A stretch of DNA of 64,000 nt from positions 60,203 to 124,202 of the forward strand of contig JAZSNN010000031.1 in NCBI GenBank assembly GCA_045536425.1, read 5' to 3'. The translations under genes and the position numbers were made by a program. Source of the DNA: Oscillospiraceae bacterium. GTDB taxonomy: Bacteria; Bacillota; Clostridia; Oscillospirales; Ruminococcaceae. This document shows positions 19,661 through 37,314 of the stretch, piece after piece; the first letter of the stretch is position 1, and the number at the start of each line of letters is the position of its first letter. The notes under the pieces are model-generated. The model saw only the letters and a program-made list of their open reading frames with translations. It did not search any database and was not told the origin of the DNA.

Positions 19661-19755
19661 ATTTGTTAAGTGCTTCGTTTACTGCAACTGCGCAAGCAAC
19701 TGTCATACCAACCATGGGGTTGTTACCAGCGCCGATGAGACCCATCATCTCAACG
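19661..19755. repeat. left direct repeat (attL-like): displaced duplicate of the last 31 codons of the GGGtGRT-family gene
   Basis: 91/95 identity with 36309..36403. All four mismatches fall on synonymous third codon positions when read on the minus strand (...GIGAGNNPMVGMTVACAVAVNEALNK*). Confidence 0.75.
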
Positions 19756-19888
19756 CATATTGAACCAGTAGATAAAACAACTCCACAAATATAGCCCGAA
19801 AGTCTTTGTAAAACCTAATCTTTAAACGTCAAATCAAATACACCAAACACATCGTTTTAAGTTTCCTTAAACGCATTATAACGTGTTT

Positions 19889-22012
19889 TCACACATTTGT
19901 AAGCTCTTTATCAATTTCATCTTGTATTTGGCTCATTTCTTCCAACAGTTCCTCTGATCGATCATATAGACGCTTAATTTGAGCATCTATATCTTTCAAA
20001 ATCTTCAACTTAACGAAAAACTTGATAATGATAGCCTCTGATACCCATTTCAAGAATCGTGAAACGAATTTCAATTTAGTTCCCAACCAACTAGCACCCG
20101 CTGAAACAACTATGCTTAAAAACCAAAAGAGCATTTGATGTTCAGAGTACCAATAATCAAGAGAATCAATAAACGGAAGTGCACAAAACAGCAAACGTAA
20201 TAACAACAAGAAAAGAAGAACTCCCAAGCAGACAGTAGTTACACGAACTCTATTAGTTTTTTTACTATCAAGAGCAATTGCCTGGTTTGTAAATGAATCG
20301 TATTTTGTTTGCTTGTCATTTTTCCTATCAGTCAATGACTTTATAAGTTTTTCTGTTTGTATACTCAAAAGACTCTTTGTGTCATTAAAGGCACGAGATA
20401 AATTGTCTTTTTCAGTAATATGCGACCTAATACTTTGTTCTTGCTCCGCAATTTTCTTTTGGCTTCTTTCAAAGTTTTCTTGAGATTCACTTAACATTTG
20501 ATCGAATTTGTGATCTACTTCTTCGCTATCTTCAGAAAGTAAATCTTGAATGCTCAAAAGTCTTTGGGAAAGCACAAGAGAAAGTTTTTTTAGTTTAGGC
20601 TCATCGCCAGACAAGCGTTCTTTTTGCCGCTCAATTTCTTTGGAAATCTTAACATAATCTCCGTTTGTTACCAAGCCTTGACTCTTAAACGCAATGACAG
20701 TATTAAAAAAGCCATCTAGTGAAGCTTTTTTAGGGTTGCACAACCACATAACAGTTGCCAATTGAGCCTCAGTAATACACTCAGGAACATTTTTGTGCGA
20801 ATTTTTTACATTCCAATTTGTAAGCCTATTATCGTCAGTTAAAACCCACCAATTAGCTTGATCTGCTTTATACAGGGACTTAGGACGATTAGAGTTCACC
20901 ACATGCACTAGCAATAAGTCGTGTGCTATACCATTGGAAGATGAATTAAGTTTAACTTCCTGCAGTGAATTAAATTCATCACTGTTGATATCAATCAAAT
21001 CAATGTTAAAAATATTCTCATCGACAAAACGAACCTTATATTTGTTAACCAAAATATCTTCCAGTTCATCAATGATAAGTTCTAATTTTGCCGACGTCAA
21101 AGACCTCCTGATGAAAGCCGATGCAAGTCCCGTAAACCCTTCTTCTCCGTATGAACGCAGAACTGTATTTGTAGTTTCTGTAGTATAAGTGGAAAACGAT
21201 CTAATGGTATCTGCTATTTGCTTTATAGTATCTTTGCAAACCCAAAATGTACAGCCCATGTCCGATAGTGCCTCATATGTATCCTGTGCCGCCTGATGTT
21301 CAAGACTTGTTTGTAAGTCTAACAATCTAAAAATATAGTTGCTATCTAGCAAGGCGTTTCCTATACGAAACTCTTCGTTTGAACTTGAAACAAATTGTTC
21401 ATTTGAAATAATAATACTAGACAAAACAATTCCTGCGAATATTTCCTTCATAAATTTGTAATGAACCGTATCATTTTTTCTCTCTTCAAGCAGAAATTCA
21501 GTCAAGTCAATAAACAACTCTTCTACTTCATCATCTATTTCCATATTAGATTGATAATTTATGAAAGAATTGAACTCTATTGCATTTTTTTGTAAAAATT
21601 CAATTATTCCTTTCGAAATTACATTTCTCTCAAAAGAATGTCCTTTTTTTCTGCAAAAAATATCAACATCGCTAAGGAGTGCACGCAACTTAAAATCGTG
21701 TTCCTCCTTTATGGAATACGATTTTAAAGTTTCTTTATTAATTTGGATGCATTCATTCTTAAGTTTTTCTATTTTTCCTTGCCTTTGCAAAATCCTAAGC
21801 AATTGGTTAAGTATAGCCGAATGAATGCGATATCCATATATTTCTTCGTATGTATCGTTTATATTAACTTCCTCAACATAATTTTTGTCGATACTGAACA
21901 AGGCATGTTCTACTAAAGGAAGAAAGCTATCAAGTAACTTGCTATTCGAGTCATATTTAGTTGAAATTACCACATATGAAATAATATTGAATTGTGCATC
22001 CATACCCAACAT
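19889..22012 (-). CDS. large hypothetical protein: ~470-aa N-terminal globular region, long coiled coil, two C-terminal TM helices
   Basis: 707-aa ORF. Predicted hydrophobic helices are ~VTTVCLGVLLFLLLLRLLFCALPFI and MLFWFLSIVVSAGASWLG. Heptad-rich segments flank the TM helices. No known catalytic motif recognised. Confidence 0.55.
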   Translation of the reverse strand: MLGMDAQFNIISYVVISTKYDSNSKLLDSFLPLVEHALFSIDKNYVEEVNINDTYEEIYGYRIHSAILNQLLRILQRQGKIEKLKNECIQINKETLKSYSIKEEHDFKLRALLSDVDIFCRKKGHSFERNVISKGIIEFLQKNAIEFNSFINYQSNMEIDDEVEELFIDLTEFLLEERKNDTVHYKFMKEIFAGIVLSSIIISNEQFVSSSNEEFRIGNALLDSNYIFRLLDLQTSLEHQAAQDTYEALSDMGCTFWVCKDTIKQIADTIRSFSTYTTETTNTVLRSYGEEGFTGLASAFIRRSLTSAKLELIIDELEDILVNKYKVRFVDENIFNIDLIDINSDEFNSLQEVKLNSSSNGIAHDLLLVHVVNSNRPKSLYKADQANWWVLTDDNRLTNWNVKNSHKNVPECITEAQLATVMWLCNPKKASLDGFFNTVIAFKSQGLVTNGDYVKISKEIERQKERLSGDEPKLKKLSLVLSQRLLSIQDLLSEDSEEVDHKFDQMLSESQENFERSQKKIAEQEQSIRSHITEKDNLSRAFNDTKSLLSIQTEKLIKSLTDRKNDKQTKYDSFTNQAIALDSKKTNRVRVTTVCLGVLLFLLLLRLLFCALPFIDSLDYWYSEHQMLFWFLSIVVSAGASWLGTKLKFVSRFLKWVSEAIIIKFFVKLKILKDIDAQIKRLYDRSEELLEEMSQIQDEIDKELTNV

Positions 22013-22065
22013 ATTTTGTGCTCCTTTGTGCTTTTTCTACATTATAGCACACAATTAGACACAAA

Positions 22066-22272
22066 TCAATCGAGATGATTGATGTCGTTTATACGGATCG
22101 CCTCAATCTTGTTGTGTTTTGCAAAACAATCTAGCTTTAGTGGTAATGAATATTTTGTTATATTTTGTATAACAAATCTGTTCTCATAAAAATACACAAT
22201 GTACAAAGCATCATTGTCGAATTTCAAAATATCTCCCGCACGAATTTGATTGTTCAATTTATCCACAAACAT
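22066..22272 (-). CDS. small hypothetical protein, co-oriented immediately upstream of the 707-aa gene
   Basis: 68-aa ORF, 53 nt upstream of the 707-aa gene start, same strand. Confidence 0.4.
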   Translation of the reverse strand: MFVDKLNNQIRAGDILKFDNDALYIVYFYENRFVIQNITKYSLPLKLDCFAKHNKIEAIRINDINHLD

Positions 22273-22436: not shown

Positions 22437-22799
22437 ATGGATAAACAAGAAAACAACATCAATAAAGCCGCTGAAACCCTAACCAAAGAACTAGATAACA
22501 TGAGTGCCGAGGGACTACACGATTTCTTCATGTTCTTCTATAAGTTGAATCACCAGCACTATAACATGATTGTCCCAGACAAGTTCGAAGAATTTCTTGA
22601 AGCCTTTGACAGTAATCCATTTAAGATTAATGACGATAAGGCGTTTAGAAAGCAACTGATAGATAATATCATCAAGTATGCTTTCGATCATATGAGTTTG
22701 ATAACTGCTGCCGTACTGATCAAAAAGAAGTTTACGGTAGAGGAAATTACACAAAATTACTACTCTATTATTGACGCATTCACAAACGAATGGTTTTAA
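22437..22799 (+). CDS. hypothetical protein
   Basis: 120-aa ORF with AAAAGGA RBS, followed by a terminator-like hairpin at ~22850-22890. Confidence 0.4.
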   Translation: MDKQENNINKAAETLTKELDNMSAEGLHDFFMFFYKLNHQHYNMIVPDKFEEFLEAFDSNPFKINDDKAFRKQLIDNIIKYAFDHMSLITAAVLIKKKFTVEEITQNYYSIIDAFTNEWF

Positions 22800-23061
22800 T
22801 TTACTTTTGCACACATATTGATAGCACAAAATATCAATTTTTGTTGTCGCAACAAAAAGAAAAGCTGATGATTTCTTATAAATCGTCAGCTTTTTAAATT
22901 TTTTAATTATTTTTTGAAAATTCTAAAAATTTGAAAACTTTACCGTATTATATGTTAAGGAGGTTATTATAATTAAAGTTAATTAAAAATTTTGTGATTT
23001 AATTAAAAGTATTAAAATTTATTGATTTTAGAATTAGTATTTATTTTATGAAATTTATTTA

Positions 23062-23406
23062 ATGAAAGGACTTAAAAACGTTATGTTTAAAAAATTTAGT
23101 TTAAAAACTATTCAACAACAGCTCTCAACTCTAACCTATGATCAAATCGAATTGCTCTTCTTTACGTTCAAGCAACTCAATCTCGACCGTAATTTCTTTT
23201 CAACCGAAAAGTCTCACATGAAATTTATCGTCGATCTATTCGAACTTCCATGTAACAGAAACCCCTCATCTTTTAAGACCTTTATTACATATTCCATCCC
23301 CAAGTATACCTCCAAATCAAAATACCCTCGATTACTACAAACTATAGAAATGATAAAAAAAGATTACACCCTCAATCAAGTAATCAATAACCTTATCAAA
23401 AAATAA
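23062..23406 (+). CDS. hypothetical protein
   Basis: 114-aa ORF with AAAGGA RBS. Confidence 0.4.
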   Translation: MKGLKNVMFKKFSLKTIQQQLSTLTYDQIELLFFTFKQLNLDRNFFSTEKSHMKFIVDLFELPCNRNPSSFKTFITYSIPKYTSKSKYPRLLQTIEMIKKDYTLNQVINNLIKK

Positions 23407-23599
23407 CTAAACTTAAGACGTTCTTGCAACCTTTTATTGCAAGAACGTCTTTTCTTTTGCCAAATTAATATCACTTATATAAAGTCTTAACCTTACATAC
23501 TATTTTGTTCATAAGACCCCTTTTGTTCAATTTTCGAACAACCATTTTATTTTTATTCATATTACTCAAGATACAGCTAATACATTTTCTAAATAAAAC

Positions 23600-23760
23600 T
23601 ATTATAAATTTTTACCCAAAAATTTATAATATAAATATTATTAATTTAATATTATTAATTTATTATTATTTTTATTTAAAATATCAACCATATACATCCA
23701 AAAACTTAACCACCGCACATCAAAAATCCAACCATATACATCCAAAAATCCGACCATTCA
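23600..23760. repeat. AT-rich tract plus two exact 20-bp direct repeats (iteron-like), putative replication origin of the island
   Basis: CAACCATATACATCCAAAAA occurs at 23685..23704 and 23729..23748. It is preceded by a nearly pure A/T stretch (aatattattaatttaatattattaatttattattattttta). The RepA_N-like gene lies immediately to the right. Confidence 0.45.
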
Positions 23761-23790
23761 AATTTTGCACCAAACTTGTATATAATAAAA

Positions 23791-23809: not shown

Positions 23810-23816
23810 AAAATGT

Positions 23817-24209
23817 TTAAAAAGAAAACTGAAACTTTTCGTTCTCCTCTTCGTTCGAATTTGAATTTAATCTAAAATCACTATATAACTTGTTAAATGC
23901 CGCTGGATCGAATTTAAAATATCTCTTCTTTGGCATCCCATGATATTTAACTTTAATGATACCATATGTTTCAAGTTCTTTACACGAAACCAATTGTTGA
24001 TGTTTACTTAACCCCGTATTGTAATACATATTCTCAACCGTACTAAAGAACCAACCACCCTGTTGTAATCCGCCATGTTCTTTCCAATATGTATATTCAG
24101 AATATATTTCCGATAACATAACCGCCGTATTTAAATTAAACTTTCGAATAAACGGTCGCGGAAGTCTAACAAAATCACTTTCGAACATCTTATCTAATTT
24201 ACTTTTCAT
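23817..24209 (-). CDS. RepA_N-like winged-helix replication initiator (short form)
   Basis: 130 aa. The segment LSEIYSEYTYWKEHGGLQQGGWFFSTVENMYYNTGLSKHQQLVSCKELETYGII matches the RepA_N / DnaD-like wHTH pattern (GWFF.T.E.m...TGLS..QQ...K.LE..GiI). Adjacent to iterons. Confidence 0.45.
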   Translation of the reverse strand: MKSKLDKMFESDFVRLPRPFIRKFNLNTAVMLSEIYSEYTYWKEHGGLQQGGWFFSTVENMYYNTGLSKHQQLVSCKELETYGIIKVKYHGMPKKRYFKFDPAAFNKLYSDFRLNSNSNEEENEKFQFSF

Positions 24210-24332: not shown

Positions 24333-24860
24333 TTGAATAAATCAAAAGCCCGAGATAGATCTATTAACATCAGAAAGATAATCATTATGAAAACAACGAA
24401 TCGAACAAAATCAGATTTACAAAGACTGATTAAAGAATCCCTCGTCAAACTAGACGCAAGACAATTCAAAACACTTTATGCCATTATTGTTCATTGTCGC
24501 GCACATGATAAACATTTTATAAGCACACAGAACTTCTTCAACCTCTGGTGCGAACTTAATATTCTATGTGCCGACTTTGACGAAAGTTTTCCTAGTCCGT
24601 ACGACGATCACTTACTACTCAAATCCTTCTGCAGTGCTCACCCGTATTATTTTATAGATATATTACCATTAGACCTAATCGAAAAACTCTTTTCAGAACA
24701 CTTAGACCTAAACTTAAACATATTATTGAATCTAATTCAAACCATATATGAACAAGATTCTAAAGCCGCACACCAGTATATTATAGATGAATTCAACATT
24801 GAGCACACCGCAGATAAACTTGTTGCCGACTTGGAAGCGCACATCAAATATTACTCATGA
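24333..24860 (+). CDS. hypothetical protein
   Basis: 175-aa ORF; an alternative start MKTTNRTK lies at ~24387. Confidence 0.4.
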   Translation: MNKSKARDRSINIRKIIIMKTTNRTKSDLQRLIKESLVKLDARQFKTLYAIIVHCRAHDKHFISTQNFFNLWCELNILCADFDESFPSPYDDHLLLKSFCSAHPYYFIDILPLDLIEKLFSEHLDLNLNILLNLIQTIYEQDSKAAHQYIIDEFNIEHTADKLVADLEAHIKYYS

Positions 24861-24953
24861 ATTTGTTTAGGGCCATAGTTAAAAACTATAGCCCTAACTA
24901 TTCTATTTTTACAAACTATTCAATCGACTTAAGTTGTATATTTTTTAGATTTA

Positions 24954-25445
24954 TTATGATTCTGTTAGTGTGTAACAAGCACTATTATATTCACCATTTT
25001 TATCAACATAATATTTCAACATACAATAATCAAAATCGTCTATACTTGAAGTTTCTTCAAAAACAACTTTATATTTTCTTTTCTCAAATTTGTCGAAATC
25101 GTACTCTTCTACCGTATACAGTTTTCTTTCAGCAACACCTTTTACGTTTTCATCCTTACAGCCCGAAGCTGCAGCGCAAGTAGCAGGCATCCATTTTTTA
25201 TTTTCATCTGTTTCTTTCACAAGAGTTTCGCAAAATGTTGATTCAGTATATTTCATAATAAGACTATCTCTAACTACAAGTAGAAACTCGTCACTCCAAT
25301 CGAGCACTGATGGTAGATCACCCTTTTCACCCGTACAACCAAAATAAACCTTGGGGACTTGATAAGAAATATCACCATCACTAACAAAATCTTTCTTTTC
25401 AATTTCTGGTCTCATAGGAACCGAACCATTAAAATAATTATTCAT
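24954..25445 (-). CDS. hypothetical protein
   Basis: 163-aa ORF, Cys-containing; GGAAAGG RBS region. Confidence 0.4.
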   Translation of the reverse strand: MNNYFNGSVPMRPEIEKKDFVSDGDISYQVPKVYFGCTGEKGDLPSVLDWSDEFLLVVRDSLIMKYTESTFCETLVKETDENKKWMPATCAAASGCKDENVKGVAERKLYTVEEYDFDKFEKRKYKVVFEETSSIDDFDYCMLKYYVDKNGEYNSACYTLTES

Positions 25446-25544
25446 ATTTTTTACCTTTCCGCCTTAATAGGCATTTCAAATTTTTTTAATATTTTTTGTT
25501 TTGGGGCTATATTGTTGATTTATAGTCCCTATGTTGTTGATAAC

Positions 25545-26078
25545 TTAGAACTTTAATCCATCAAACACCAACTGACGCTGAGAAGGCACAGGTGGAACAT
25601 ACTCGTTAGGCATAGGCGAAGTATTGTTAAATGAATATCCAGTCACCGACTTCTGATAAGTACTTGTACAGGATACCGGATCTCTCCACTCGGGAAGCTT
25701 AGCCTGATAAGCACGAGTAATACAAAAGAGCACCTTTGCATAGACAGCGCCATTATAGCTATCGTGCTTAACTCTTACAGCTCCGTCTTTACCAACCCAA
25801 GACTCATAGTCATTAAGGTCATAGTTGGTGATTCCAAAGGACTCAAAGAACTTGCCGAGATGATGATTGGTTTTCTCGGGGTTGCTAGGGTCTAGAATGA
25901 TTCGATGCCAAAGTTTTCCTGGATAGCCAGACACATCAAGCATAATCTCAAATCCATCGTTGCCCGAGCTATAGGTTTTAATTGTTACTTTGCTCACTAC
26001 TACTCTGTGGTCTCCCTCAGGGATGAGGGTATTCTCGTTAATCTTAAAGTCTGCTGCGTTATAATTCCATGTAATCAT
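25545..26078 (-). CDS. hypothetical protein (possibly phage/island-associated)
   Basis: 177-aa ORF with AAGGAG RBS; no family confidently recognised. Confidence 0.45.
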   Translation of the reverse strand: MITWNYNAADFKINENTLIPEGDHRVVVSKVTIKTYSSGNDGFEIMLDVSGYPGKLWHRIILDPSNPEKTNHHLGKFFESFGITNYDLNDYESWVGKDGAVRVKHDSYNGAVYAKVLFCITRAYQAKLPEWRDPVSCTSTYQKSVTGYSFNNTSPMPNEYVPPVPSQRQLVFDGLKF

Positions 26079-26580: not shown

Positions 26581-27294
26581 ATGGCAACATATGCTTATTG
26601 CAGAGTATCAACACCGCATCAGAGGTTAGAGAGACAAATTACCAACATCACAGCAATCTATCCAAACGCTATTATCATTAGAGAATTCTTTACAGGAACA
26701 ACCCAGAACAGACCCAACTGGGAAAAACTCATGGGGCAAATAAAATCGGGAGACGTCATCGTTTTTGATAGTGTCTCTAGAATGAGTCGTAATGCCGAAG
26801 AAGGTTTTAGAGATTACAAAATGTTATATGAGCGTAACATTAGCCTCGTCTTTCTCAATGAACCTTTAATTAATACTTCTGTCTTTGATTCTACACGTAA
26901 CAACTTATTGAAAATTGATATCGAAACCGGTAATAATGCCGTTGATGAGTTTTTCAAGGGCAACGTTCAGCTCATAAATAACTTTATGATGGCTCTTGCC
27001 GAACAACAAATCAAAGCAGCCTTTGAGCAATCCGAAAAGGAGGTCACAGACTTACATACACGCATTAGTCAGGGGATGCGTGAGAGCAAAAAGAACGGTA
27101 AACAAATCGGGCTCACAAAGGGAACGACATTGATTACTAATAAATCAATCAAGTGCAAAGAAATAATAAAAAAGCATGCCACCGAATTCGGTGGCATGCT
27201 TAGTGACAAAGAGGTAATGACACTCTGTAAAATATCAAGGAATTCTTATTACAAATATAAGGGAGAATTAAAGAAACAAAGTACCAACACCTAA
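26581..27294 (+). CDS. small serine recombinase (resolvase/invertase family) with C-terminal HTH
   Basis: 237 aa with catalytic Ser in YCRVSTPHQ, conserved D/R residues (DSVSRMSRN) and a C-terminal HTH; GGAGG RBS. Confidence 0.85.
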   Translation: MATYAYCRVSTPHQRLERQITNITAIYPNAIIIREFFTGTTQNRPNWEKLMGQIKSGDVIVFDSVSRMSRNAEEGFRDYKMLYERNISLVFLNEPLINTSVFDSTRNNLLKIDIETGNNAVDEFFKGNVQLINNFMMALAEQQIKAAFEQSEKEVTDLHTRISQGMRESKKNGKQIGLTKGTTLITNKSIKCKEIIKKHATEFGGMLSDKEVMTLCKISRNSYYKYKGELKKQSTNT

Positions 27295-27296
27295 TA

Positions 27297-27578
27297 TTAT
27301 AAACTTTCCAAAAAAGCTATTAACAACTTCTTTTGCTTTGGTGTAAGTTTAGAAAACGCAGTAGCGAGTTCGTCCTGTTGTATTTCCACCCTAAAGAATT
27401 CTTGGAGGGAAATATCCATAGCATCACACAAGAGTTGCAAGTGACCGACAGTAATATCAGCTTGTCCAAGTTCAACCCTGCGAAGATGCGTTTGAGAAAC
27501 CCCTGCCCTTTCCGCAAGACCATTTTGGGTAAGCCAACTCTTATTTCTTAATTCAACCAATCTTTCTCCAACGTTCAT
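27297..27578 (-). CDS. XRE-family helix-turn-helix transcriptional regulator
   Basis: 93 aa, LTQNGLAERAGVSQTHLRRVELGQADITVGHLQLLCDAM; AAGGAG RBS; divergent from the four-gene operon. Confidence 0.7.
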   Translation of the reverse strand: MNVGERLVELRNKSWLTQNGLAERAGVSQTHLRRVELGQADITVGHLQLLCDAMDISLQEFFRVEIQQDELATAFSKLTPKQKKLLIAFLESL

Positions 27579-30966: not shown

Positions 30967-31003
30967 AACTGAATTCAAACGCATAATGTAAAGGGGTTTT
31001 AAT

Positions 31004-32998
31004 ATGGCAAAATACATTATAGAATGTCCACGTTGTGGTAAACCAATTGAAGCTAGTACAGGACTATTTGCGAAAAAAGAAATTGTTTGTCCTGAATGTA
31101 AAAGAAAAATTGATCTTGCTATGGAGAAAATGGTAGAAGAAACTTGTCCTCGTTGCGGAGGTAGAGTTGTATACGACCGCACAAAACCTTCTTCTGCAAT
31201 TTGCCCTACTTGCCATACAAATATTAAGTCTGGCAAGCAAGAGGAAATAACTTGTCCTTCTTGCCAAATGCACTTGAATGTTGATACAAACGCAAAAACA
31301 TGCACTTGCCCTCAATGTAAAACAGAAATTGATGTACAGGCTAGATTGGCGCAAAAAGAAAGTGGCAAAACCGCACAAGTAATTAAATGGGATGGCGAAA
31401 ACGGAGTGTTTATTTATCGTCATCCGATGGAGAACTTCAAACTCGGTTCTCAACTAATTGTTAAAGAGAGCCAAAAAGCCGTATTTTTCCGCAACGGTAA
31501 AGCTTTGGATGTTTTTGGTCCTGACAGATATACTCTTGAAACTCAAAATCTACCTTTGATGGAAGAAATCCTAAAATATCCCACTAATGCAGATTTGACA
31601 TTCAGCTCTCAGGTATACTTCATTAGGACTGATGGACCAATATCAGTTAATTGGGGCATTCCAAAAATGAAATTGCGAAACCCGGGTATGGATTTCTATG
31701 TTGATGTAAGTGCACGCGGTTCGGCTTTTATGCAGATTAAAGATGGAAACGAAAACGTTAGAAAGTTCCTTTCAAAGGTAATAGGTACAGCCACAACTAA
31801 TGGTGTAATAGAGAAGTATGATTCAGAGTATATAACAAATAAATTCCGTGATTATATTACAGCTCGTTTGGGATCGTTACTTGCAGAAATTATCACCTCA
31901 AGCAATATCAATGTCTTAGATCTTGCATCCAAAAGGGCCACTATCAGTGATATGCTGGTCAAGGACTACAACGAATTGTTAGAGGAATACGGCTTAGAGA
32001 TTCCTCCCAAACAATTTATGGTAACAAGCATAGATCCTGTTATTACCCCTGAAGTTGAAACTTGGATTCGCCAAGAGTCTGAAAAGGTGCTCAAAGTTCG
32101 ACAAGAGGGTGTCCTCAAGGCCGAAGCTGAAGCTCGTCAAGGAAGAGTTCTTGTTGAAGAGCAAACCGAAGTTCAAAAGAAAATCCTTAGGACTCAAGGT
32201 GAAGGCGAAGAACGCAAAATCTCTGCAATGGCTGATGCTGATGTTACTCGTATTGAGGCACAAGGTGCGGCTGATGCTACTATTATTTCAACGAAAGCTA
32301 ATGCGGAATCTACCATTATATCTAGTCAGGCAGAAGCGGAAGCGACAATTGTTACCGGACGTGCTGAAGCAGAAACTACTAGACTTACCGGTCAAGCATC
32401 AGCTGAAGCATATAGAGCACAAGCTATCGCAGAGGCTGATGAAATGCACGCCAAGGGTTATACATATGCACAAGAAACCTCTCGCCAAATTGGTTTGGAA
32501 GCATTGCAGAATGGTTTGCCCGGAACCGGTGTGAATATTTCTTCCTCTTCCGAAAAAGGTGGTTCTGGACTTACAGACACACTCGGTGATATGATTGGAC
32601 TTGGTGTTGGTTTGAGCGCAATGGGCGGCGTTGTAAATATGACAAAGGATATTGTGAGTCCTATCATAGGCCAAATCTCTGATATTGGCAAACAACCGAT
32701 AGAAACCCCAGTTGCTACTATGCCTCAAACGAATTTGGTCAGTGCGTGGAATTGTGCTTGTGGCAAATCATGCATCACATCAAAATTCTGTCCAGAATGT
32801 GGTTCTCCCAAGCCGGTAACTTTGGATAACGGCGTTTGGAATTGCACCTGTGGTCAGAGTGGAATCACTTCTAATTTCTGTCCTAATTGTGGTGCTCGTA
32901 AGCCTATAAGCAATACAAATTGGAATTGCCACAACTGCGGACAAACTGACATTACAAGCAATTTCTGTCCTAACTGTGGCAGTAAGAAAGGTGAATGA
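31004..32998 (+). CDS. SPFH/band-7 domain protein flanked by three N-terminal and three C-terminal zinc ribbons
   Basis: 664 aa. There are six N-terminal CxxC pairs. The central region fits SPFH (VIKWDGENGVFIYRHP...KESQKAVFFRNGKALDVFGPDRYTL). An Ala/Glu-rich coiled coil follows (QGAADATIISTKANAESTIISSQAEAEATIVTGRAEAE), then a Gly-rich linker. The C-terminus has three WNCxCGxxxITSxFCPxCG double-zinc-ribbon repeats. Confidence 0.7.
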   Translation: MAKYIIECPRCGKPIEASTGLFAKKEIVCPECKRKIDLAMEKMVEETCPRCGGRVVYDRTKPSSAICPTCHTNIKSGKQEEITCPSCQMHLNVDTNAKTCTCPQCKTEIDVQARLAQKESGKTAQVIKWDGENGVFIYRHPMENFKLGSQLIVKESQKAVFFRNGKALDVFGPDRYTLETQNLPLMEEILKYPTNADLTFSSQVYFIRTDGPISVNWGIPKMKLRNPGMDFYVDVSARGSAFMQIKDGNENVRKFLSKVIGTATTNGVIEKYDSEYITNKFRDYITARLGSLLAEIITSSNINVLDLASKRATISDMLVKDYNELLEEYGLEIPPKQFMVTSIDPVITPEVETWIRQESEKVLKVRQEGVLKAEAEARQGRVLVEEQTEVQKKILRTQGEGEERKISAMADADVTRIEAQGAADATIISTKANAESTIISSQAEAEATIVTGRAEAETTRLTGQASAEAYRAQAIAEADEMHAKGYTYAQETSRQIGLEALQNGLPGTGVNISSSSEKGGSGLTDTLGDMIGLGVGLSAMGGVVNMTKDIVSPIIGQISDIGKQPIETPVATMPQTNLVSAWNCACGKSCITSKFCPECGSPKPVTLDNGVWNCTCGQSGITSNFCPNCGARKPISNTNWNCHNCGQTDITSNFCPNCGSKKGE

Positions 32999-33714
32999 AT
33001 ATGAAGCTAACAAAACGTAAAAAATCGGTGATAATAATTTATTCAATCGCCACCATAGTATTTCTTATCCTGACAATAGGCATTCCTTTTGCCAAACCTG
33101 CTGCCTCTTGGATGATGTTTGCTTTTTCCATTGTGTCATTAACAGGTGGATGTGGTATTACCTTATTTGCTTTTAGTAAATCAGAAGAATTAAAGAGCAA
33201 ATTTTACGGATATCCTGTTTTTAGAATAGGAAGCCTTTACACAATTATTCAACTAGCATTAACAGTTTTGATATACATCATTGGTGCTTTTGTAAACATT
33301 CCGTACTGGGTTGGTTTAGCAATATCTGTTTTACTTATGGGACTGGCTTCCATCGGAGTAATCACAACAGATACCGCAAGGGATTATGTTGAGGAAATAG
33401 ATACAAAAACCACAGCAACGGTTAAAACGTTGACAAGATTCAATGTGGATATCTCTGATTTGGTAGACGTTTGTAAATACGATTCTGCCAAAAGCTCCCT
33501 GAAAAAGTTGGCTGAGAAGTTTAAATATAGTGACCAGGTTTCATCTTCTGCGACGGAAGAAAAAGAGGCACTTATTATGGAGGAACTGAATAACTTAAGA
33601 GAAATCATAACTAGAAATGATGCAGAAAAAATCATCGAACAGGTTGAGGCGGTTTCTAATCTGCTTAATAGCCGAAACCGCATTTGCGAATCGGCCAAAT
33701 CAACAAACAGATAA
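32995..33714 (+). CDS. membrane protein (4 predicted TM helices) with cytoplasmic coiled-coil tail
   Basis: 239 aa; the start ATG overlaps the previous stop (ATGA), indicating translational coupling. Confidence 0.55.
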   Translation: MNMKLTKRKKSVIIIYSIATIVFLILTIGIPFAKPAASWMMFAFSIVSLTGGCGITLFAFSKSEELKSKFYGYPVFRIGSLYTIIQLALTVLIYIIGAFVNIPYWVGLAISVLLMGLASIGVITTDTARDYVEEIDTKTTATVKTLTRFNVDISDLVDVCKYDSAKSSLKKLAEKFKYSDQVSSSATEEKEALIMEELNNLREIITRNDAEKIIEQVEAVSNLLNSRNRICESAKSTNR

Positions 33715-33769
33715 TGTTGTTTAATATTGACTTAGTCAATAATTTATAAAAAAGAAAGAGGTAATTATT

Positions 33770-34537
33770 ATGAGTAGTTCAGTAGAAATTAGGTGGTTGA
33801 GAGCCACTATGAACAGTGTCAACGGCGCAGGAGTTGAACATTGGTACTTCAATGCTACCGATAAGGAAATTAAGTACTTAACTTTTGTTTATGTTCCGTA
33901 CAATCAGGTTGGTGATCAGGTTCAATGCACAATGTCCAGGAAAAGCGAGGTTTCATGCAAATTAACAGGTCCTATTAAACCTTATCACGAAAACAATGTG
34001 AAATGGGAAGCTTTGTGGTATAACCCCACTGTAACGAAGATTGAATTAGTTCAGATTCATATTGACTATATGGATGGTTCTGAAGAAACCATCGATGGTG
34101 CAGATGTTGTAGATATGTCTGATAAACAAAGTGTGTATTATGAAAAAGTTGAAAAACCTGCAGAGGAAGAACGAGCTGAAAGAGAAAAACAATTGGCTAT
34201 TCAGCTTGCTGAAAGTGAAAAGAAGGCGGCAGAAAAAAAGGCAATTGATGATAGAAATAATGAATTAGCAACGGCATATTTGTGTTTCAAGGTGTTCAGC
34301 TGCTTTAAGAAAATGAAAGACGATGACGAAATGAAATTCCATGTTAATCAAGGTTTGTGGCTTTTCATATTTGAAGTTATTGGGATTATCTGTGCTATCA
34401 TAAGCGGTTTTGCTACTCTTCTTTCCCTTGTTTTTGAAGGACTAGCTATATTCCTTTCTATTAAAGGATTTAAAGAAACTAGAGAAGGCAAACGTTTTGA
34501 AATTCCTCTCATCAGCAAAATCAAATTAATCAAATAA
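33770..34537 (+). CDS. protein with N-terminal soluble domain, charged coiled coil and C-terminal TM hairpin
   Basis: 255 aa with AGAGG RBS. The coiled coil is EEERAEREKQLAIQLAESEKKAAEKKAIDD. Hydrophobic helices are GLWLFIFEVIGIICAIISGFATLLSLVFEGLAIFL. Confidence 0.55.
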   Translation: MSSSVEIRWLRATMNSVNGAGVEHWYFNATDKEIKYLTFVYVPYNQVGDQVQCTMSRKSEVSCKLTGPIKPYHENNVKWEALWYNPTVTKIELVQIHIDYMDGSEETIDGADVVDMSDKQSVYYEKVEKPAEEERAEREKQLAIQLAESEKKAAEKKAIDDRNNELATAYLCFKVFSCFKKMKDDDEMKFHVNQGLWLFIFEVIGIICAIISGFATLLSLVFEGLAIFLSIKGFKETREGKRFEIPLISKIKLIK

Positions 34538-34688: not shown

Positions 34689-34812
34689 TATAACGAAAAG
34701 ATAGCCTACGCAATTGCGCGGGCTATAATCATAATTTCGTTTGTAATTTTAAATTATACTCATCAATTCACAACCTGCTACTGTGTATCTATACAAATAA
34801 CCGTCGTTCAAA

Positions 34813-35151
34813 TTATTCACCTATTCTATCGATAGCATCCTTAATTTCCTCTATATTGGCGTCACGAGTCAAAAAATATTTATTCAAACCATTTACTACT
34901 GAAACAATCTCTTGATAGTAGCAGTGAAGTGGTGTATCATCCAAATCGCTAACCCACCAGCCAAAATCGTGCATTTCAAGAAGCAACCCTGCCAACTCTT
35001 TGGGTACGAGTTTTTCTTTGCTATATTCTTCAATAATTTCACAAGTGTCTTTAAACAAAGCACGGACTTTCTCAAAACCCAGATTGTTGAATTCAATTAC
35101 ATCCCACGTTGCCTTGTGCCAATCGTTAGATATCATTTCTATTCTTCCCAT
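34813..35151 (-). CDS. hypothetical small cytoplasmic protein
   Basis: 112-aa ORF between the integrase gene and the operon terminator; acidic, no motif recognised. Confidence 0.4.
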   Translation of the reverse strand: MGRIEMISNDWHKATWDVIEFNNLGFEKVRALFKDTCEIIEEYSKEKLVPKELAGLLLEMHDFGWWVSDLDDTPLHCYYQEIVSVVNGLNKYFLTRDANIEEIKDAIDRIGE

Positions 35152-35222
35152 ATATAACCTCCCGACAATTTTAGACTAATTAAATTATAACACATAATCT
35201 TTAAAAAGGTTATACTTTAAGA

Positions 35223-36161
35223 CTAACTTTTCAATGAAATGTGCTTCCTGCCGTGGAACTTATCTAACACATTTATTTCATCAACCTGTTTTGCCACATC
35301 ACTGACTAAGAGGTTAATATAATTCTGTGTTATATCTAAGCTTGAATGACCTAACAGTTTTGAGAGTGACACGACGTTGCCTCCACTCAGAATCCATTGT
35401 TTCGCAAACGTATGTCTATACCTGTGTATTCCTGTTGTCTCTACGCCGCGCTTTTTATTATACTCATAGAGCTTATGATAGCAGGTACTTTTAATCAGTT
35501 GTTGACCAAACACATTGCAAAACAGATAGTCATCATCAGACTTATGCTGTCGATATTTTAAATATTCGGTCAAGATATTGACCATTGTTTGATTAAGTGG
35601 AACGATCAACGGTTTTCTATTTTTAGTCACATTCACATAGACGACGCTGTTATCAAAATCAATATCCTTGACTTTTATGTGCATCAGGCTTCTTTGTCTC
35701 ACAGCAGTTGAAAACAAGAAGTTAGTCATAACCCAGCACTGATATTCAGTGAAAGAGCATTTCTTTAAATCGGGCTTCTTAAGCAATAACCTCAGTTCCT
35801 GCTCGTCATACGTTTCTACGTGGGATTTATCGACCTTTATTGACTTCATTTTAAAAGGCTCAATATAGCCCTCATTCATAAGAAAATGCAATGTGGTTAT
35901 CAAATCTCGCAGGTATGAGTTAATACTGACATCATTGTTAAGCGTTGCCTTCAAGTGCAAGACATATCTGTTATATTCATTTTCGTTGAGTCTTTCTATT
36001 GGCATTTCAGGATCAAAGAACTTGAAAAACTGTGTATAGCTTTGGCGATAATGGTTGATAGTTCCTTGTCTTAAATTACGCTGTCGGCAATACTCCAGAT
36101 ACCTATCACACCCCTCTTCAAAAGTAATAGATTTTGTTGCTTTCATTTTCAGTTTGTGCAT
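35223..36161 (-). CDS. tyrosine-type site-specific integrase
   Basis: Conserved R...HxxR...Y catalytic signature (HRYRHTFA ... LGHSSLDITQNY) with an N-terminal SAM-like core-binding domain. Start chosen at MHKLKMKATK with a GTGAGG RBS 9 nt upstream. The gene abuts the right att repeat. Confidence 0.85.
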   Translation of the reverse strand: MHKLKMKATKSITFEEGCDRYLEYCRQRNLRQGTINHYRQSYTQFFKFFDPEMPIERLNENEYNRYVLHLKATLNNDVSINSYLRDLITTLHFLMNEGYIEPFKMKSIKVDKSHVETYDEQELRLLLKKPDLKKCSFTEYQCWVMTNFLFSTAVRQRSLMHIKVKDIDFDNSVVYVNVTKNRKPLIVPLNQTMVNILTEYLKYRQHKSDDDYLFCNVFGQQLIKSTCYHKLYEYNKKRGVETTGIHRYRHTFAKQWILSGGNVVSLSKLLGHSSLDITQNYINLLVSDVAKQVDEINVLDKFHGRKHISLKS

Positions 36162-36306
36162 TGTAACATACCTCACTTTTAACATAAAAAATATAGACAC
36201 ATCATCAAAGAAAACTCTAAAATGATGTGTCTAACTTTTTATTTATTGGTTTTTGTAACAGGTCTTTTACAAGTTGCCCAAAAGCTTTAAAAAGCCTTAT
36301 AAATCC

Positions 36307-37314
36307 TTATTTATTAAGTGCTTCGTTTACTGCAACTGCACATGCAACTGTCATACCAACCATGGGGTTGTTACCTGCGCCGATGAGACCCATCATCTCA
36401 ACGTGTGCGGGAACGGAAGAGGAACCTGCAAACTGTGCATCGGAGTGCATTCTTCCCATTGTATCGGTCATACCGTAGGAAGCGGGGCCTGCAGCCATAT
36501 TGTCAGGATGGAGAGTTCTTCCTGTGCCGCCACCGGAAGCAACGGAGAAGTACTTCTTGCCCTGCTCAACACACTCTTTCTTGTATGTGCCTGCAACGGG
36601 GTGCTGGAAGCGTGTGGGGTTGGTGGAGTTACCTGTGATGGAAACGTCAACGCCCTCTTTGTGCATGATAGCAACGCCCTCACGAACGTCGTCTGCACCG
36701 TAGCAACGAACCTTTGCACGCTCACCGTCGGAGTATGCTGTTTCTTTTACTATCTCAAGCTTGCCTGTGTAGTAGTCAAATTTTGTCTGCACATAGGTGA
36801 AGCCGTTGATTCTGGAGATAATCTGTGCGGCATCCTTACCGAGACCGTTGAGGATAACGCGGAGGGGCTCTTTACGAGCTTTATTAGCACTTCTTGCAAG
36901 ACCGATAGCGCCTTCAGCAGCTGCGAAGGACTCGTGACCTGCGAGGAATGCGAAGCACTTTGTCTCATCTCTGAGAAGCATTGCGCCGAGGTTACCGTGG
37001 CCGGTACCAACCTTACGGTCGTCAGCAACGGAGCCGGGGATACAGAAGGACTGGAGTCCGAGGCCTATCTTCTCTGCAGCCTCTGCAGCGGATTTAACCT
37101 GATCCTTGATAGCGATAGCGCAGCCTACTACATAAGCCCAGCCAGCGTTCTCGAAGCAGATAGGCTGAATACCTTTAACGATATTATAAGCATCAACACC
37201 TGCTTTATCGCAGATTTCCTTAGCTTCCTCAATGGAGGAAATGCCGTGTTTATTAAGTTCTGCGTTGATTTGGTCTATTCTTCTTTCATAACTTTCAAAC
37301 AAAGCCATTGTCAA
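36307..37314 (-). CDS. GGGtGRT-family protein
   Basis: 335 aa containing the eponymous SGGGTGRTLHP motif and a Gly/Ala-rich C-terminus. Confidence 0.7.
   Translation of the reverse strand: MTMALFESYERRIDQINAELNKHGISSIEEAKEICDKAGVDAYNIVKGIQPICFENAGWAYVVGCAIAIKDQVKSAAEAAEKIGLGLQSFCIPGSVADDRKVGTGHGNLGAMLLRDETKCFAFLAGHESFAAAEGAIGLARSANKARKEPLRVILNGLGKDAAQIISRINGFTYVQTKFDYYTGKLEIVKETAYSDGERAKVRCYGADDVREGVAIMHKEGVDVSITGNSTNPTRFQHPVAGTYKKECVEQGKKYFSVASGGGTGRTLHPDNMAAGPASYGMTDTMGRMHSDAQFAGSSSVPAHVEMMGLIGAGNNPMVGMTVACAVAVNEALNK
36309..36403. repeat. right direct repeat (attR-like) forming the current 3' end of the GGGtGRT-family gene
   Basis: The repeat starts exactly at the stop codon of the gene at 36307..37314 and is contiguous with the remainder of the gene. 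Confidence 0.75.

What the first reader, a model, noticed from the sequence alone, without database searches (positions are those of the whole stretch)
19661..36403. ~16.7-kb AT-rich integrative island inserted into the 3' end of a protein-coding gene (GGGtGRT family), bounded by 95-bp direct repeats
Positions 19661..19755 and 36309..36403 are 91/95 identical direct repeats. The right copy begins exactly at the stop codon of the GGGtGRT-family gene and is continuous with it, while the left copy is an orphaned duplicate. A tyrosine integrase gene lies ~150 bp inside the right repeat. The intervening DNA is visibly lower in GC than both flanks. It carries a serine recombinase, an XRE regulator, a RepA_N-like initiator with iterons and cargo modules, but no capsid, tail or conjugation genes. 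This fits a small integrative, possibly replicative element: an integrative mobilisable element or a satellite-like island, using a protein-gene 3' end rather than a tRNA as attB.
Basis: seen in the sequence. Interest (0 to 1): 0.6.

Follow-up and report, generated by a model that had tools for sequence, protein, structure and literature searches.

The report
Integrase island in GGGtGRT gene end
A 16.6-kb mobile island has inserted itself, using its own integrase, into the last 31 codons of a conserved gut-bacterial gene while supplying a replacement gene end; this is a well-known kind of element at a target gene that the papers searched here do not report.

Summary
Two 97-nt direct repeats (19659-19755 and 36307-36403, 93/97 identical) bracket 16.55 kb of 34.7% GC DNA. 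The right repeat is the stop codon plus the last 31 codons of an intact GGGtGRT gene. All four mismatches are synonymous. An intact tyrosine integrase lies 107-146 bp inside the right repeat.

Related genomes show uninterrupted sites. One has GGGtGRT, then IVP, then SHOCT, at 97% identity to the left repeat and its flank. Others run straight from the GGGtGRT stop through a terminator to the beta-CASP gene, so the low-GC 17.5-19.66 kb block is also an insert.

Integrases at least 70% identical, and a 50% clade, sit next to a GGGtGRT 3' end wherever upstream sequence exists. Other element types use the same site.

The island is modular. It has an int/att module, a conserved core, and cargo. The core comprises an XRE regulator, a small serine recombinase, a RepA_N/DnaD-fold protein beside 22-bp iterons, and small unknown proteins. 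This core recurs with unrelated integrases at other gene 3' ends. The cargo is an LRR/SPFH membrane operon and a candidate defence gene.

No relaxase, conjugation, capsid or packaging genes were found, so the transfer route is unknown. Verdict: a new member of a known kind, of moderate interest.

The parts
36307..36403 (-). Right (gene-proximal) repeat: stop codon plus the last 31 codons of GGGtGRT. Inferred to be largely the element-supplied copy (the attP-derived gene end).
   Evidence: Its alleles at the 4 mismatch positions (AATT) differ from most unoccupied relatives.
19659..19755 (-). Left (distal) repeat: the displaced native 3' end of GGGtGRT, still joined to its native downstream DNA.
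   Evidence: It is 97/97 identical to the gene end in unoccupied L187. It is colinear with the gene end plus intergenic region plus IVP gene in L021 (85.6% over 785 nt) and in L187 (97.3%).
36307..37314 (-). Target gene: GGGtGRT family protein (333 aa from ATG 37308), intact after integration.
   Evidence: Pfam PF14057, E 2e-195, matching profile positions 1-327 of 327. Homologues of 333 aa occur in relatives.
36183..36232 (-). Island-borne terminator-like hairpin (AGACACATCAT...ATGATGTGTCT followed by a U-run) between the supplied stop codon and int.
   Evidence: RNA fold z-score -4.0; coordinates. A homologous scar follows the GGGtGRT stop in L188 and L191.
35223..36161 (-). Tyrosine integrase (312 aa from ATG 36161; the mechanical ORF starts at GTG 36200).
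   Evidence: PF00589 and SAM-like N-terminal domains. XerA/XerC-like alignment with R, HxxR, H and Y conserved. Homologues of 70-86% identity sit next to GGGtGRT ends.
34813..35151 (-). o112, a small acidic protein downstream of int. It is conserved in related islands and its function is unknown.
   Evidence: Homologues in L081, L196 and L201 at 26-37% identity. No family hit.
28171..34537 (+). Cargo operon of four genes: a 931-aa Zn-ribbon/TPR/TM/BspA-type LRR protein, a 664-aa SPFH (Band_7_1) protein with Zn-ribbons, and two membrane proteins (239 and 255 aa).
   Evidence: Pfam LRR_5 9e-51 and Band_7_1 6e-31. The operon is absent from the 7.7-kb relative in L081. PADLOC gave no hit.
27297..27578 (-). 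XRE-family HTH regulator (core module).
   Evidence: HTH_3 3e-11. 80-86% identical in L081 and L196.
26581..27294 (+). Small serine recombinase of the resolvase/invertase type (core module).
   Evidence: Resolvase domain 4e-19. Sin/Bin3 alignment with the catalytic RVS motif. 74-78% identical in L081, L093, L096, L196, L201 and L202.
24333..26078 (.). Core small genes: o177 (25545-26078, minus; SSB-like PHROG), o163 (24954-25445, minus) and o175 (24333-24860, plus).
   Evidence: phrog_378 2.6e-7 for o177. Homologues in L081, L093, L196, L201 and L202.
23817..24209 (-). o130: a RepA_N/DnaD-NTD-fold winged-helix protein with an acidic linker and a conserved C-terminal FxFSF tail. Candidate origin-binding protein.
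   Evidence: phrog_9773 'replication initiation O-like' 1.3e-10. 36-42% identical to the N-terminus of L. delbrueckii phage replication proteins. AF2 pLDDT 75.8; best PDB matches are 4pt7, 4pql and 5kbj; from my own recall these are plasmid RepA NTD structures. 944 homologues, the top 120 at least 80% identical.
23590..23750 (.). AT-rich stretch plus 3.3 copies of a 22-nt iteron-like unit (AAAAATCAACCATATACATCC). Candidate origin.
   Evidence: TRF array 23679-23750 and repeats. The region is conserved at 81% with o130 in L196.
22437..23406 (+). o120 and o114, conserved small core proteins of unknown function.
   Evidence: Homologues in L081, L085, L088, L093, L100, L196, L201 and L202. No family hits.
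19889..22012 (-). o707: distal cargo, predicted as winged helix, then a PIN-like domain, then a long coiled coil, then TM segments. Candidate defence gene.
   Evidence: 47 homologues with no Pfam domain. Conserved LLDSNY...TDDN motifs. The weak best fold hits are PIN-type proteins by my own recall (1w8i, HARP, VapC). Homologue P0125 lies between type III R-M, a helicase, KAP NTPases and AbiE. A TIR_2 protein occupies the same slot in L196.
19756..19888 (.). Distal non-coding arm of the island, next to the left repeat.
   Evidence: Conserved at 76-78% with the distal arms of the L081 and L092 islands.
17515..19658 (.). Older low-GC layer outside the repeats: RHH, o68, SHOCT, a lipoprotein, 23S_rRNA_IVP and a structured intergenic region. 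Not part of the repeat-bounded island.
   Evidence: Absent from L186, L188, L190 and L191, where homology jumps from window 36306 to 17514. Partly present in L187, L021, L015 and L035. No distal repeat.

Best explanation
This is a site-specific integrative genomic island of 16,551 bp (16,648 bp counting one repeat).

Integration mechanism. The island's own XerC/XerA-like tyrosine integrase recombined the element's attP with the 3' end of the chromosomal GGGtGRT gene. The attP carries a synonymous copy of the last 31 codons and the stop codon, followed by the element's own terminator hairpin. Integration therefore replaces the gene's end without changing the protein. The right repeat is the new gene end. 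The native end, the left repeat, is left 16.6 kb away, still attached to its original downstream DNA. The crossover most likely lies in the gene-internal ~27 nt of the repeat.

Modular structure:
1. An int/att module that sets the target.
2. A conserved core: an XRE regulator, a small serine recombinase, a RepA_N/DnaD-fold DNA-binding protein next to 22-bp iterons and an AT-rich stretch, an SSB-like protein and several small unknown proteins. This core probably allows regulated maintenance or replication and multimer resolution of the excised circle.
3. Cargo: an LRR/SPFH membrane-protein operon and a 707-aa candidate defence protein.

Transfer. The island encodes no recognisable transfer or packaging machinery, so it presumably relies on a helper conjugative element or phage.

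Site context. The site downstream of GGGtGRT is a layered hotspot. The 17.5-19.66 kb block is an older, repeat-less layer.

Shown versus inferred. Shown: repeats, gene restoration, an integrase with conserved catalytic positions, uninterrupted sites in relatives, clade-wide target association, and modular sharing of the core. Inferred: crossover position, activity today, replication, and helper dependence.
For: Repeats and synonymous mismatches.

Integrase domains and catalytic motifs.

Uninterrupted sites in relatives:
- L021 is colinear with the in-silico joined site: 785 nt, 85.6% identity, no break at either junction.
- L187 matches window 19019-19755 at 97.3% and continues directly into the gene.
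- L186 and L190 run from the GGGtGRT stop through a hairpin to the beta-CASP gene, with full flanking synteny.

Which copy is native: unoccupied relatives carry mostly left-copy alleles. L187 is 97/97 to the left copy and 93/97 to the right copy.

Target association of the integrase clade:
- Integrase homologues of 70-86% identity follow a GGGtGRT 3' end in L081 (twice), L083, L084, L085, L088, L089, L094 and L097.
- A 50% clade does the same in L031, L044 and L045. L045 has a 93-nt repeat bounding 7.6 kb.

Element-supplied gene ends elsewhere:
- In L194, which carries a different element, the last ~45 nt of the gene are strongly divergent while the upstream 300 nt are 293/300 identical to the window.
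- The L196 island duplicates 165 nt of a rubrerythrin 3' end with 1 amino-acid change.

Core shared with islands that carry other integrases.

o130 fold and iterons.

No transfer or structural genes in the window island or in 65 ORFs from nine related islands.
Against: - No empty site was found in the same species. The relatives have 82-89% nucleotide identity in the flanks, and the exact empty-site pattern gave 0 metagenome hits.
- No attP or circular junction was observed.
- No excisionase-like small ORF was found.
- The four-position allele argument for which copy is native rests on polymorphic synonymous sites.
- o130 is only an NTD-sized protein. Short repA_N proteins of streptococcal IMEs have been suggested to serve another function (PMC5357655), so replication is unproven.
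- Pfam RepA_N did not hit.
Confidence: 0.9

Rival explanations
1. The island is an integrative mobilisable element. After excision it is transferred by a co-resident conjugative element that recognises an oriT on the island, with no relaxase of its own.
For: - The architecture and the target type match IMEs that insert at 3' ends of protein genes and accrete in tandem (PMC5704250; PMC5357655).
- Integrase-only 'MGEs' in Faecalibacterium are argued to be oriT-only IMEs (PMC12084326).
- A different element carrying ArdA and HTH_17 occupies the same site in L194.
Against: - No relaxase, coupling protein or T4SS family was found in the window island or in nine related islands.
- No oriT was identified.
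- No helper element is visible in the window.
Confidence: 0.25
2. The island is a phage satellite (PLE- or PICI-like). A helper phage triggers excision, the RepA_N-like protein and iterons drive replication, and the DNA is packaged in helper capsids. The defence-like cargo acts against phages.
For: - An integrative element of 7-17 kb with a regulator, a RepA_N-fold protein plus iterons, and mostly unknown genes.
- In IMG/VR contig L081/L111, two related islands lie in tandem directly after more than 19 kb of prophage structural genes, separated by GGGtGRT end fragments.
- Defence-type cargo: the o707 context, TIR_2 in L196 and R-M in L201.
- From my own knowledge, PLE uses a RepA_N initiator.
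Against: - No terminase, capsid, scaffold or packaging-redirection family in 65 ORFs of related islands.
- Only 2 IMG/VR contigs carry a related integrase.
- No match in INPHARED phages.
- The related phages (L112-L185) show no GGGtGRT fragments.
Confidence: 0.15
3. The island is a decayed remnant of a prophage or ICE that is now immobile. Only the integrase, the repeats and some replication-type genes survive.
For: - Phage-type hits for o130 and o177.
- Repeat-bounded remnants without an integrase exist at the same site in L001, L028 and L063. Scars occur in L188 and L191, and a truncated integrase in L097.
Against: - The same compact core recurs intact at 40-92% amino-acid identity in many genomes, with four different intact integrases.
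- o130 has 944 homologues under strong conservation.
- The integrase ORF is full length and keeps the catalytic motifs, and the repeats are 96% identical.
- These features argue for a maintained, autonomous element type rather than random decay.
Confidence: 0.1
4. The repeats arose by a local duplication or by an assembly artefact, unrelated to site-specific recombination.
For: The window comes from a metagenome-type assembly, and many MAG contigs break at this locus.
Against: - The repeat ends exactly at the stop codon.
- An integrase lies beside it.
- The same arrangement recurs in independent assemblies with diverged sequences.
- The two copies differ at 4 positions.
Confidence: 0.02

Closest known systems
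Tyrosine-integrase IMEs and genomic islands inserted at the 3' end of protein-coding genes (for example rpsI, rplL, rpmG, rpmE, guaA; SGI1 in trmE; MGIs in yicC), as reviewed in PMC5704250 and PMC5357655
   Same: - An outward-facing tyrosine integrase at one end.
- Direct repeats that duplicate the target gene's 3' end, so that the gene stays intact.
- Integrase clades tied to one target gene.
- Tandem accretion with other elements, remnants and prophages.
- Short repA_N-type proteins occur in some IMEs.
   Different: - No relaxase, coupling protein or oriT was recognised.
- The target gene (GGGtGRT) is not in the target lists I read in those reviews. None of the 13 papers in the searchable library that mention GGGtGRT appears, from titles and abstracts and the two passages read, to treat it as an att site.
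- The host is an uncultured Acutalibacteraceae-like Clostridia lineage.
Integrase-only 'MGEs' and composite tandems of Faecalibacterium (PMC12084326)
   Same: - Elements that encode a tyrosine or serine recombinase, carry ICE/IME-like cargo and have no conjugation genes.
- They are frequently found in tandems, one of which includes a prophage.
- The hosts are in the same order.
   Different: Sequence relatedness to those elements was not tested. The conserved XRE, resolvase and RepA_N-fold core described here did not come up in the passages of that paper that I read.
ICESt1/ICESt3 with CIMEs at the fda 3' end (the accretion-mobilisation model; own knowledge plus PMC5704250)
   Same: A conserved gene's 3' end serves as attB. 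Layers of decayed elements lie next to a functional one.
   Different: The older layer here (17515-19658) has no second att repeat, so it does not qualify as a CIME. No conjugation module is present.
PLE of Vibrio cholerae and PICI-type phage satellites (own knowledge; PMC9410903 listed)
   Same: An integrated island of about 7-18 kb with a regulator, an origin-binding RepA_N-type protein with iterons, many unknown genes, and a link to anti-phage functions.
   Different: - PLE uses a large serine integrase and a full-length RepA.
- No helper phage, packaging gene or induction evidence exists here.
RepA_N theta replicons of Gram-positive plasmids (pSK41 and pTZ2162 RepA; PDB 4pt7, 4pql, 5kbj; entry identities from own knowledge)
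   Same: o130 is predicted to share the RepA NTD winged-helix fold and lies next to iteron-like repeats.
   Different: - o130 lacks the C-terminal domain, having only an acidic linker and an FxFSF tail.
- Pfam RepA_N does not score.
- No free plasmid relative was found in PLSDB at the DNA level.

Membership tests
Site-specific integrative genomic island (tyrosine recombinase) | [quoted passage not shown] | tested here: met
   PF00589 E 2.5e-30. Alignment to XerA-like 4a8e conserves R, HxxR, H and Y.
Site-specific integrative genomic island (tyrosine recombinase) | Direct repeats at both ends that correspond to the target site; target gene restored | tested here: met
   97-nt repeats, 93/97 identical, equal to the last 31 codons plus stop, encoding the same peptide.
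Site-specific integrative genomic island (tyrosine recombinase) | Presence/absence polymorphism with an uninterrupted attB in relatives | tested here: met
   L021, L187, L186 and L190. These are related species, not the same species.
Site-specific integrative genomic island (tyrosine recombinase) | Excision to a circular form with attP, and regeneration of attB | not testable with these tools
   This needs reads or PCR from the source sample. The empty-site pattern search found nothing.
Integrative mobilisable element (IME) | Own relaxase and/or oriT (sometimes also a coupling protein) | tested here: not met
   No relaxase or coupling-protein family in Pfam, PHROGs or NCBIfam for the window ORFs, nor for 65 ORFs of related islands. 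An oriT-only IME cannot be excluded.
Integrative conjugative element (ICE) | T4SS genes (VirB4, coupling protein) plus a relaxase | tested here: not met
   None found.
Prophage | Capsid, portal, terminase, tail and lysis genes | tested here: not met
   None found in the island. No DNA match to 50,697 phage records.
Phage satellite (PICI, PLE, P4-like) | Helper-dependent induction and packaging; capsid-redirection or small-terminase genes | tested here: inconclusive
   No such genes were recognised. However, most ORFs are of unknown function, and one relative lies in tandem with a prophage. Induction cannot be tested here.
RepA_N replicon | RepA_N-family initiator (NTD plus CTD) with adjacent iterons | tested here: inconclusive
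   - Pfam RepA_N gave no hit.
- The best PDB fold matches are 4pt7, 4pql and 5kbj (RepA NTD structures by my own recall) at TM 0.55-0.57.
- 3.3 copies of a 22-nt unit are present.
- The CTD is absent.
CIME (for the 17515-19658 block) | att repeats at both ends, without recombination genes | tested here: not met
   Only one GGGtGRT-end copy borders the block. No repeat remnant lies near 17.5 kb.

The most novel reading that the evidence does not exclude
The conserved core is an XRE regulator, a small serine recombinase, a highly conserved 130-aa RepA_N-fold protein with iterons, and three or four small unknown proteins. The 130-aa protein alone has over 900 sequence variants in metagenomes. In the four contexts examined, the core is combined with four different tyrosine integrases; two target sites were mapped (GGGtGRT and rubrerythrin 3' ends). 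The cargo in these contexts is defence-type or surface-type: TIR, R-M, LRR and the PIN-like o707. On the most novel reading, this core defines an undescribed, widespread family of integrative replicative hitchhiker elements in rumen and gut Clostridia, possibly a new family of phage satellites.
Probability: 0.15. Interest if true: 0.6.

Novelty: new member of a known kind. Interest (0 to 1): 0.35.

Why it matters
The finding adds GGGtGRT, a conserved gene expressed at levels detectable in rumen metaproteomes, to the list of protein-gene 3' ends used as attachment sites. In Oscillospirales-type gut bacteria this site is a multi-user hotspot. It holds two integrase clades of this family, at least two other integrase types, probably a prophage (one contig), remnants and scars.

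For genome annotators, it probably explains why many MAG contigs break just after this gene.

It also exposes a compact, very widespread core module that appears to move between integrase modules and carries defence and cell-surface genes. That module is a tractable entry point for studying how non-conjugative, non-phage islands spread in uncultured gut Clostridia.

None of this changes current concepts of site-specific integration.

Tried and rejected
- Exact-protein look-ups of GGGtGRT (two start codons), the integrase and the beta-CASP neighbour found nothing on record. The NifU-like neighbour did work.
- A gapped exact pattern for a same-strain empty site found 0 hits in metagenomes.
- A search for a third, degenerate repeat copy bounding the 17.5-19.66 kb block found none.
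- Locating the crossover from alleles in species-level relatives was uninformative. Congeneric loci were only moderately informative.
- PADLOC on ten island proteins gave no defence-system hit.
- Rfam gave only tRNAs at gathering score, plus sub-threshold Gut-1 hits outside the island.
- No plausible excisionase-like small ORF was found.
- All-against-all BLASTP detected no paralogy among the small core proteins.
- DNA searches of the core against INPHARED phages and PLSDB plasmids gave no match.
- The idea that the serine recombinase inverts the island body is unresolved. In L093 and L096 the body is in the opposite orientation relative to int, but no simple pair of inverted sites explains it. 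Exchange of the int/att module is the simpler reading, given L196, L201 and L202.
- Foldseek of the o707 model gave only non-significant hits, which I recognise as PIN-type folds.
- The GGGtGRT literature contains no att-site report among 13 papers, judged from titles and abstracts and the two passages read.

Full report
OBSERVATION

The two repeats exist and are 97 nt long: 19659-19755 and 36307-36403, 93/97 identical, 16,648 bp apart. A sensitive search finds no third copy in the window.

The right copy is the stop codon plus the last 31 codons and one further base of a full-length GGGtGRT gene (36307-37314, minus strand; PF14057, E 2e-195). Translating both copies gives the same peptide, VEMMGLIGAGNNPMVGMTVACAVAVNEALNK*. 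All four differences are therefore synonymous.

The DNA between the repeats (19756-36306, 16,551 bp) has GC 0.347, against 0.457 for both distant flanks.

The GC step on the left lies at about 17,500, not at the left repeat. The 2.1 kb between (17515-19658) has GC 0.345.

GENE CONTENT

Read in the direction of the GGGtGRT gene, the island contains the following features.
- A terminator-like hairpin supplied by the island (36183-36232; fold z-score -4.0).
- A tyrosine integrase (35223-36161; PF00589). It aligns with XerA/XerC-like structures with the R, HxxR, H and Y positions conserved.
- A small acidic protein, o112.
- A four-gene operon on the opposite strand (28171-34537). It encodes a 931-aa Zn-ribbon/TPR/TM/BspA-LRR protein, a 664-aa SPFH protein with Zn-ribbons, and two membrane proteins.
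- An XRE regulator and a small serine recombinase, arranged tail to tail.
- o177 (SSB-like PHROG), o163 and o175.
- o130.
- An AT-rich stretch and 3.3 copies of a 22-nt unit (23590-23750).
- o114, o120 and o68.
- A 707-aa protein, o707.
- A 133-bp non-coding arm next to the left repeat.

No capsid, terminase, portal, tail, lysis, relaxase, coupling-protein or T4SS family is hit in Pfam, PHROGs or NCBIfam. PADLOC gave no defence-system hit. No excisionase-like small ORF is evident.

EMPTY SITES

One scan of a one-genome-per-species collection with the GGGtGRT protein returned 80 loci. It places the host among uncultured Acutalibacteraceae-like Clostridia from ruminant and other animal guts.

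In L021, L015 and L035 a 23S_rRNA_IVP gene follows GGGtGRT directly. Deleting the island in silico while keeping the left repeat gives a sequence colinear with L021. The alignment covers 785 nt at 85.6% identity. It runs from the gene through the repeat and the hairpin-rich intergenic region into the IVP gene, with no break at either junction.

A look-up of the neighbouring NifU-like protein was more telling. That protein is identical in several assemblies, and the look-up returned ten contigs with full flanking synteny. Their flanks are 82-89% identical to the window and the GGGtGRT gene about 95%, so they are related species, not the same one.
- In L187 the gene end, the intergenic region and the IVP gene match window 19019-19755 at 97.3% and continue directly into the gene.
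- In L186, L190, L188 and L191 homology stops at window 36306 and resumes at 17514. The whole 17515-36306 region is missing.
- L186 and L190 read GGGtGRT stop, hairpin, promoter-like sequence, beta-CASP gene.

The 17.5-19.66 kb block is thus an older inserted layer. It has no distal repeat.

The search for a same-strain empty site in metagenomes was negative.

WHICH COPY IS NATIVE

Unoccupied relatives mostly carry the left-copy alleles at the four variable positions. L187 is 97/97 to the left copy and 93/97 to the right copy. The C at repeat position 63 is present in all unoccupied sites.

The left copy is also the one contiguous with conserved downstream DNA. I therefore read the left copy as the displaced native end and the right copy as the element-supplied end. 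The crossover would lie in the gene-internal ~27 nt (36377-36403). This is an inference from few polymorphic sites.

The same principle is visible elsewhere.
- In L194, which carries a different element, the last ~45 nt of the gene carry most of the 14 differences from the left copy (11 from the right copy). The upstream 300 nt are 293/300 identical to the window.
- In L196 a related island duplicates 165 nt of a rubrerythrin gene's 3' end with a single amino-acid difference.

TARGET SPECIFICITY AND HOTSPOT

Integrases 70-86% identical to this one are preceded by a GGGtGRT end or gene wherever enough upstream sequence is present. This applies to L081 (two tandem islands), L083, L084, L085, L088, L089, L094 and L097.

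A clade at 50% identity does the same in L031, L044 and L045. In L045 a 93-nt repeat bounds a 7.6-kb island.

Other users of the site:
- A 432-aa integrase island with a 67-nt repeat in L025.
- A 501-aa integrase element with HTH_17, ArdA and a DNA methylase in L194.
- Repeat-bounded remnants without an integrase in L001, L028 (barnase/barstar-like genes by my reading of the sequences) and L063, a Bacteroidales genome.
- A ~130-nt scar of the int-proximal arm in L188 and L191.
- In L081/L111, more than 19 kb of prophage structural genes ending at a GGGtGRT end fragment, followed by two islands in tandem.

Twelve of the 80 species-level contigs end within 1 kb after the gene. This is what a polymorphic, repeat-bounded locus does to assemblies.

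MODULARITY

The 7.7-kb island A in L081 shares several features with the window: int, o112, XRE, the serine recombinase, o175, o114, o120 and the distal arm. It lacks the LRR/SPFH operon, o707 and the o130 group.

A homology search with o130 then showed a very large and tightly conserved family. There were 944 hits, the best 120 of them at least 80% identical. Their contexts show the same core with other integrases.
- L196: a 404-aa integrase, a rubrerythrin 3' end target, and a TIR_2 protein in the o707 slot.
- L201: a 400-aa integrase with R-M systems as cargo.
- L202: a 395-aa integrase with an LRR_5 protein inside the core.

Identity to the window proteins is 76-78% for the recombinase, 80% for XRE, 85-92% for o130 and 40-78% for the small proteins.

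The opposite orientation of the core relative to int in L093 and L096 is best read as exchange of the int/att module. Both architectures, with the integrase next to the target gene or at the far end, are known for IMEs (PMC5357655).

THE REPLICATION CLAIM

Evidence in favour:
- o130 hits PHROG 'replication initiation O-like' at 1.3e-10.
- It is 36-42% identical to the N-terminus of replication proteins of Lactobacillus delbrueckii phages.
- An AF2 model (pLDDT 75.8) finds 4pt7, 4pql and 5kbj as its best PDB matches (TM 0.55-0.57), followed by the DnaD N-terminal domain. From my own knowledge, those three entries are the pSK41 and pTZ2162 RepA NTDs.
- o130 ends in an acidic linker and a conserved FxFSF tail, which suggests a partner-binding peptide.
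- The adjacent iteron and AT-rich region is co-conserved in L196.

Evidence against:
- Pfam RepA_N does not score.
- The protein lacks a C-terminal domain.
- Short repA_N proteins in streptococcal IMEs have been suspected of another role.

Replication of the excised form is therefore plausible but unproven. The serine recombinase would fit multimer resolution; this is an inference.

CARGO

o707 has 47 homologues without any Pfam domain. It carries conserved LLDSNY...TDDN motifs. Its model consists of a winged helix, an alpha/beta domain, a ~130-residue coiled coil and TM helices. The weak best fold hits are proteins I recognise as PIN-type: 1w8i, HARP and VapC.

A 54%-identical homologue lies between a type III R-M system, a helicase, two KAP NTPases and AbiEi/AbiEii. 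A defence role is a reasonable guess, no more.

BspA-type LRR proteins recur as cargo at this site in L025, L083, L011 and L202.

COMPARISON WITH KNOWN SYSTEMS

Tyrosine-integrase elements that insert into the 3' end of protein-coding genes are well described (PMC5704250; PMC5357655). Such elements duplicate the gene end, accrete in tandem and leave remnants. Integrase-only elements in tandems are reported in Faecalibacterium (PMC12084326).

The element meets the defining features of a site-specific integrative island. It fails the relaxase criterion for an IME as tested, and it fails the criteria for an ICE and for a prophage. The satellite criteria are untestable or inconclusive here.

GGGtGRT does not appear as an attachment site in the 13 papers that mention it, judged from their titles and abstracts and the two passages I read.

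VERDICT

The finding is real and correctly interpreted in its essentials. It is a new member of a known kind of element, at a target gene not reported in the papers searched here. It sits within a layered hotspot and belongs to a widespread but undescribed modular family. Its mode of transfer is unknown. Interest is moderate (0.35).

Noticed in passing
window 19446-19658: The 213-nt spacer between the left repeat and the IVP gene start is strongly structured (z-score -5.4). It holds several hairpins flanked by ATGAAAT/ATTTCAT motifs, and one stem shows compensatory changes relative to L021. Two sub-threshold Rfam Gut-1 (RF01706) matches occur: 37 and 36 bits against a gathering score of 50, at 19577-19644 (minus) and 19459-19527 (plus).
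   Followed up: partly
window 17515-19658: A low-GC block outside the repeats carries RHH, a 68-aa Cys-rich ORF, a SHOCT membrane protein, a lipoprotein and a 23S_rRNA_IVP protein. It is absent from L186, L188, L190 and L191. It is partly present, at 97% identity, in L187 in a different genomic background. It looks like an older, repeat-less inserted layer.
   Followed up: partly
L081 1-9742 and L111 1-19583 (IMG/VR UViG 3300018878_002442): Prophage structural genes (HK97 gp10-like and others) run up to a GGGtGRT 3' fragment (L081 9742-9855) that is followed by two tandem islands. This phage protein family is common in IMG/VR (75 loci), but the other members show no GGGtGRT fragment.
   Followed up: partly
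L194 3960-11040: A different element sits immediately after the GGGtGRT stop. It carries a DNA methylase, a 501-aa tyrosine integrase, an HTH_17 protein and ArdA. The last ~45 nt of the gene are replaced by a divergent version.
   Followed up: partly
L196 3706-14800: A 10.9-kb island with the same core but a 404-aa integrase is bounded by 165-nt repeats of the rubrerythrin gene's 3' end. It carries an 817-aa TIR_2 protein where the window has o707. Here the integrase lies at the end far from the intact target gene.
   Followed up: partly
L093, L096, L085, L088, L090, L100: In these relatives the core genes (o120, o175, the recombinase) are in the opposite orientation relative to the integrase, compared with the window and L081. 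It is unresolved whether this reflects exchange of the int/att module or an inversion by the serine recombinase.
   Followed up: partly
L188 11715-11850 and L191 6994-7130: A ~130-nt scar homologous to the island's int-proximal arm, including the AGACACATCAT hairpin, follows the GGGtGRT stop, although no integrase is present.
   Followed up: no
L028 6426-8113; L063 10993-12828; L001 1695-4690: Short segments without an integrase are bounded by a second copy of the GGGtGRT end (44, 75 and 29 nt). From my reading of the sequences, they carry a barnase-like toxin with two barstar-like genes, an AAA ATPase (in a Bacteroidales genome), and an XRE/TPR regulator plus a pectate-lyase-like protein.
   Followed up: no
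window 32755-32979: The 3' end of the SPFH gene holds three tandem ~90-nt units, each encoding a zinc-ribbon (C-x-C...FCPxCG). Its N-terminus also has several zinc-ribbons. The neighbouring LRR protein starts with a zinc-ribbon as well.
   Followed up: no
window 22899-22952 and 26348-26401: 54-nt inverted repeats of 70% complementarity flank the o114...o177 segment, just upstream of the serine recombinase gene. In this AT-rich DNA they may be chance; no orientation variant of exactly this segment was seen.
   Followed up: partly
loci L002, L003, L009, L012, L013, L018, L019, L029, L046, L192, L193: Many MAG and metagenome contigs end within a few hundred bases after, or within, the GGGtGRT 3' end. 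This is consistent with strain-level polymorphism or repeats at this site breaking the assemblies.
   Followed up: no
window 49767-53255: Three tRNA genes (Val-GAC, Leu-GAG, Pro-GGG) lie in the right flank. None is associated with the island.
   Followed up: no
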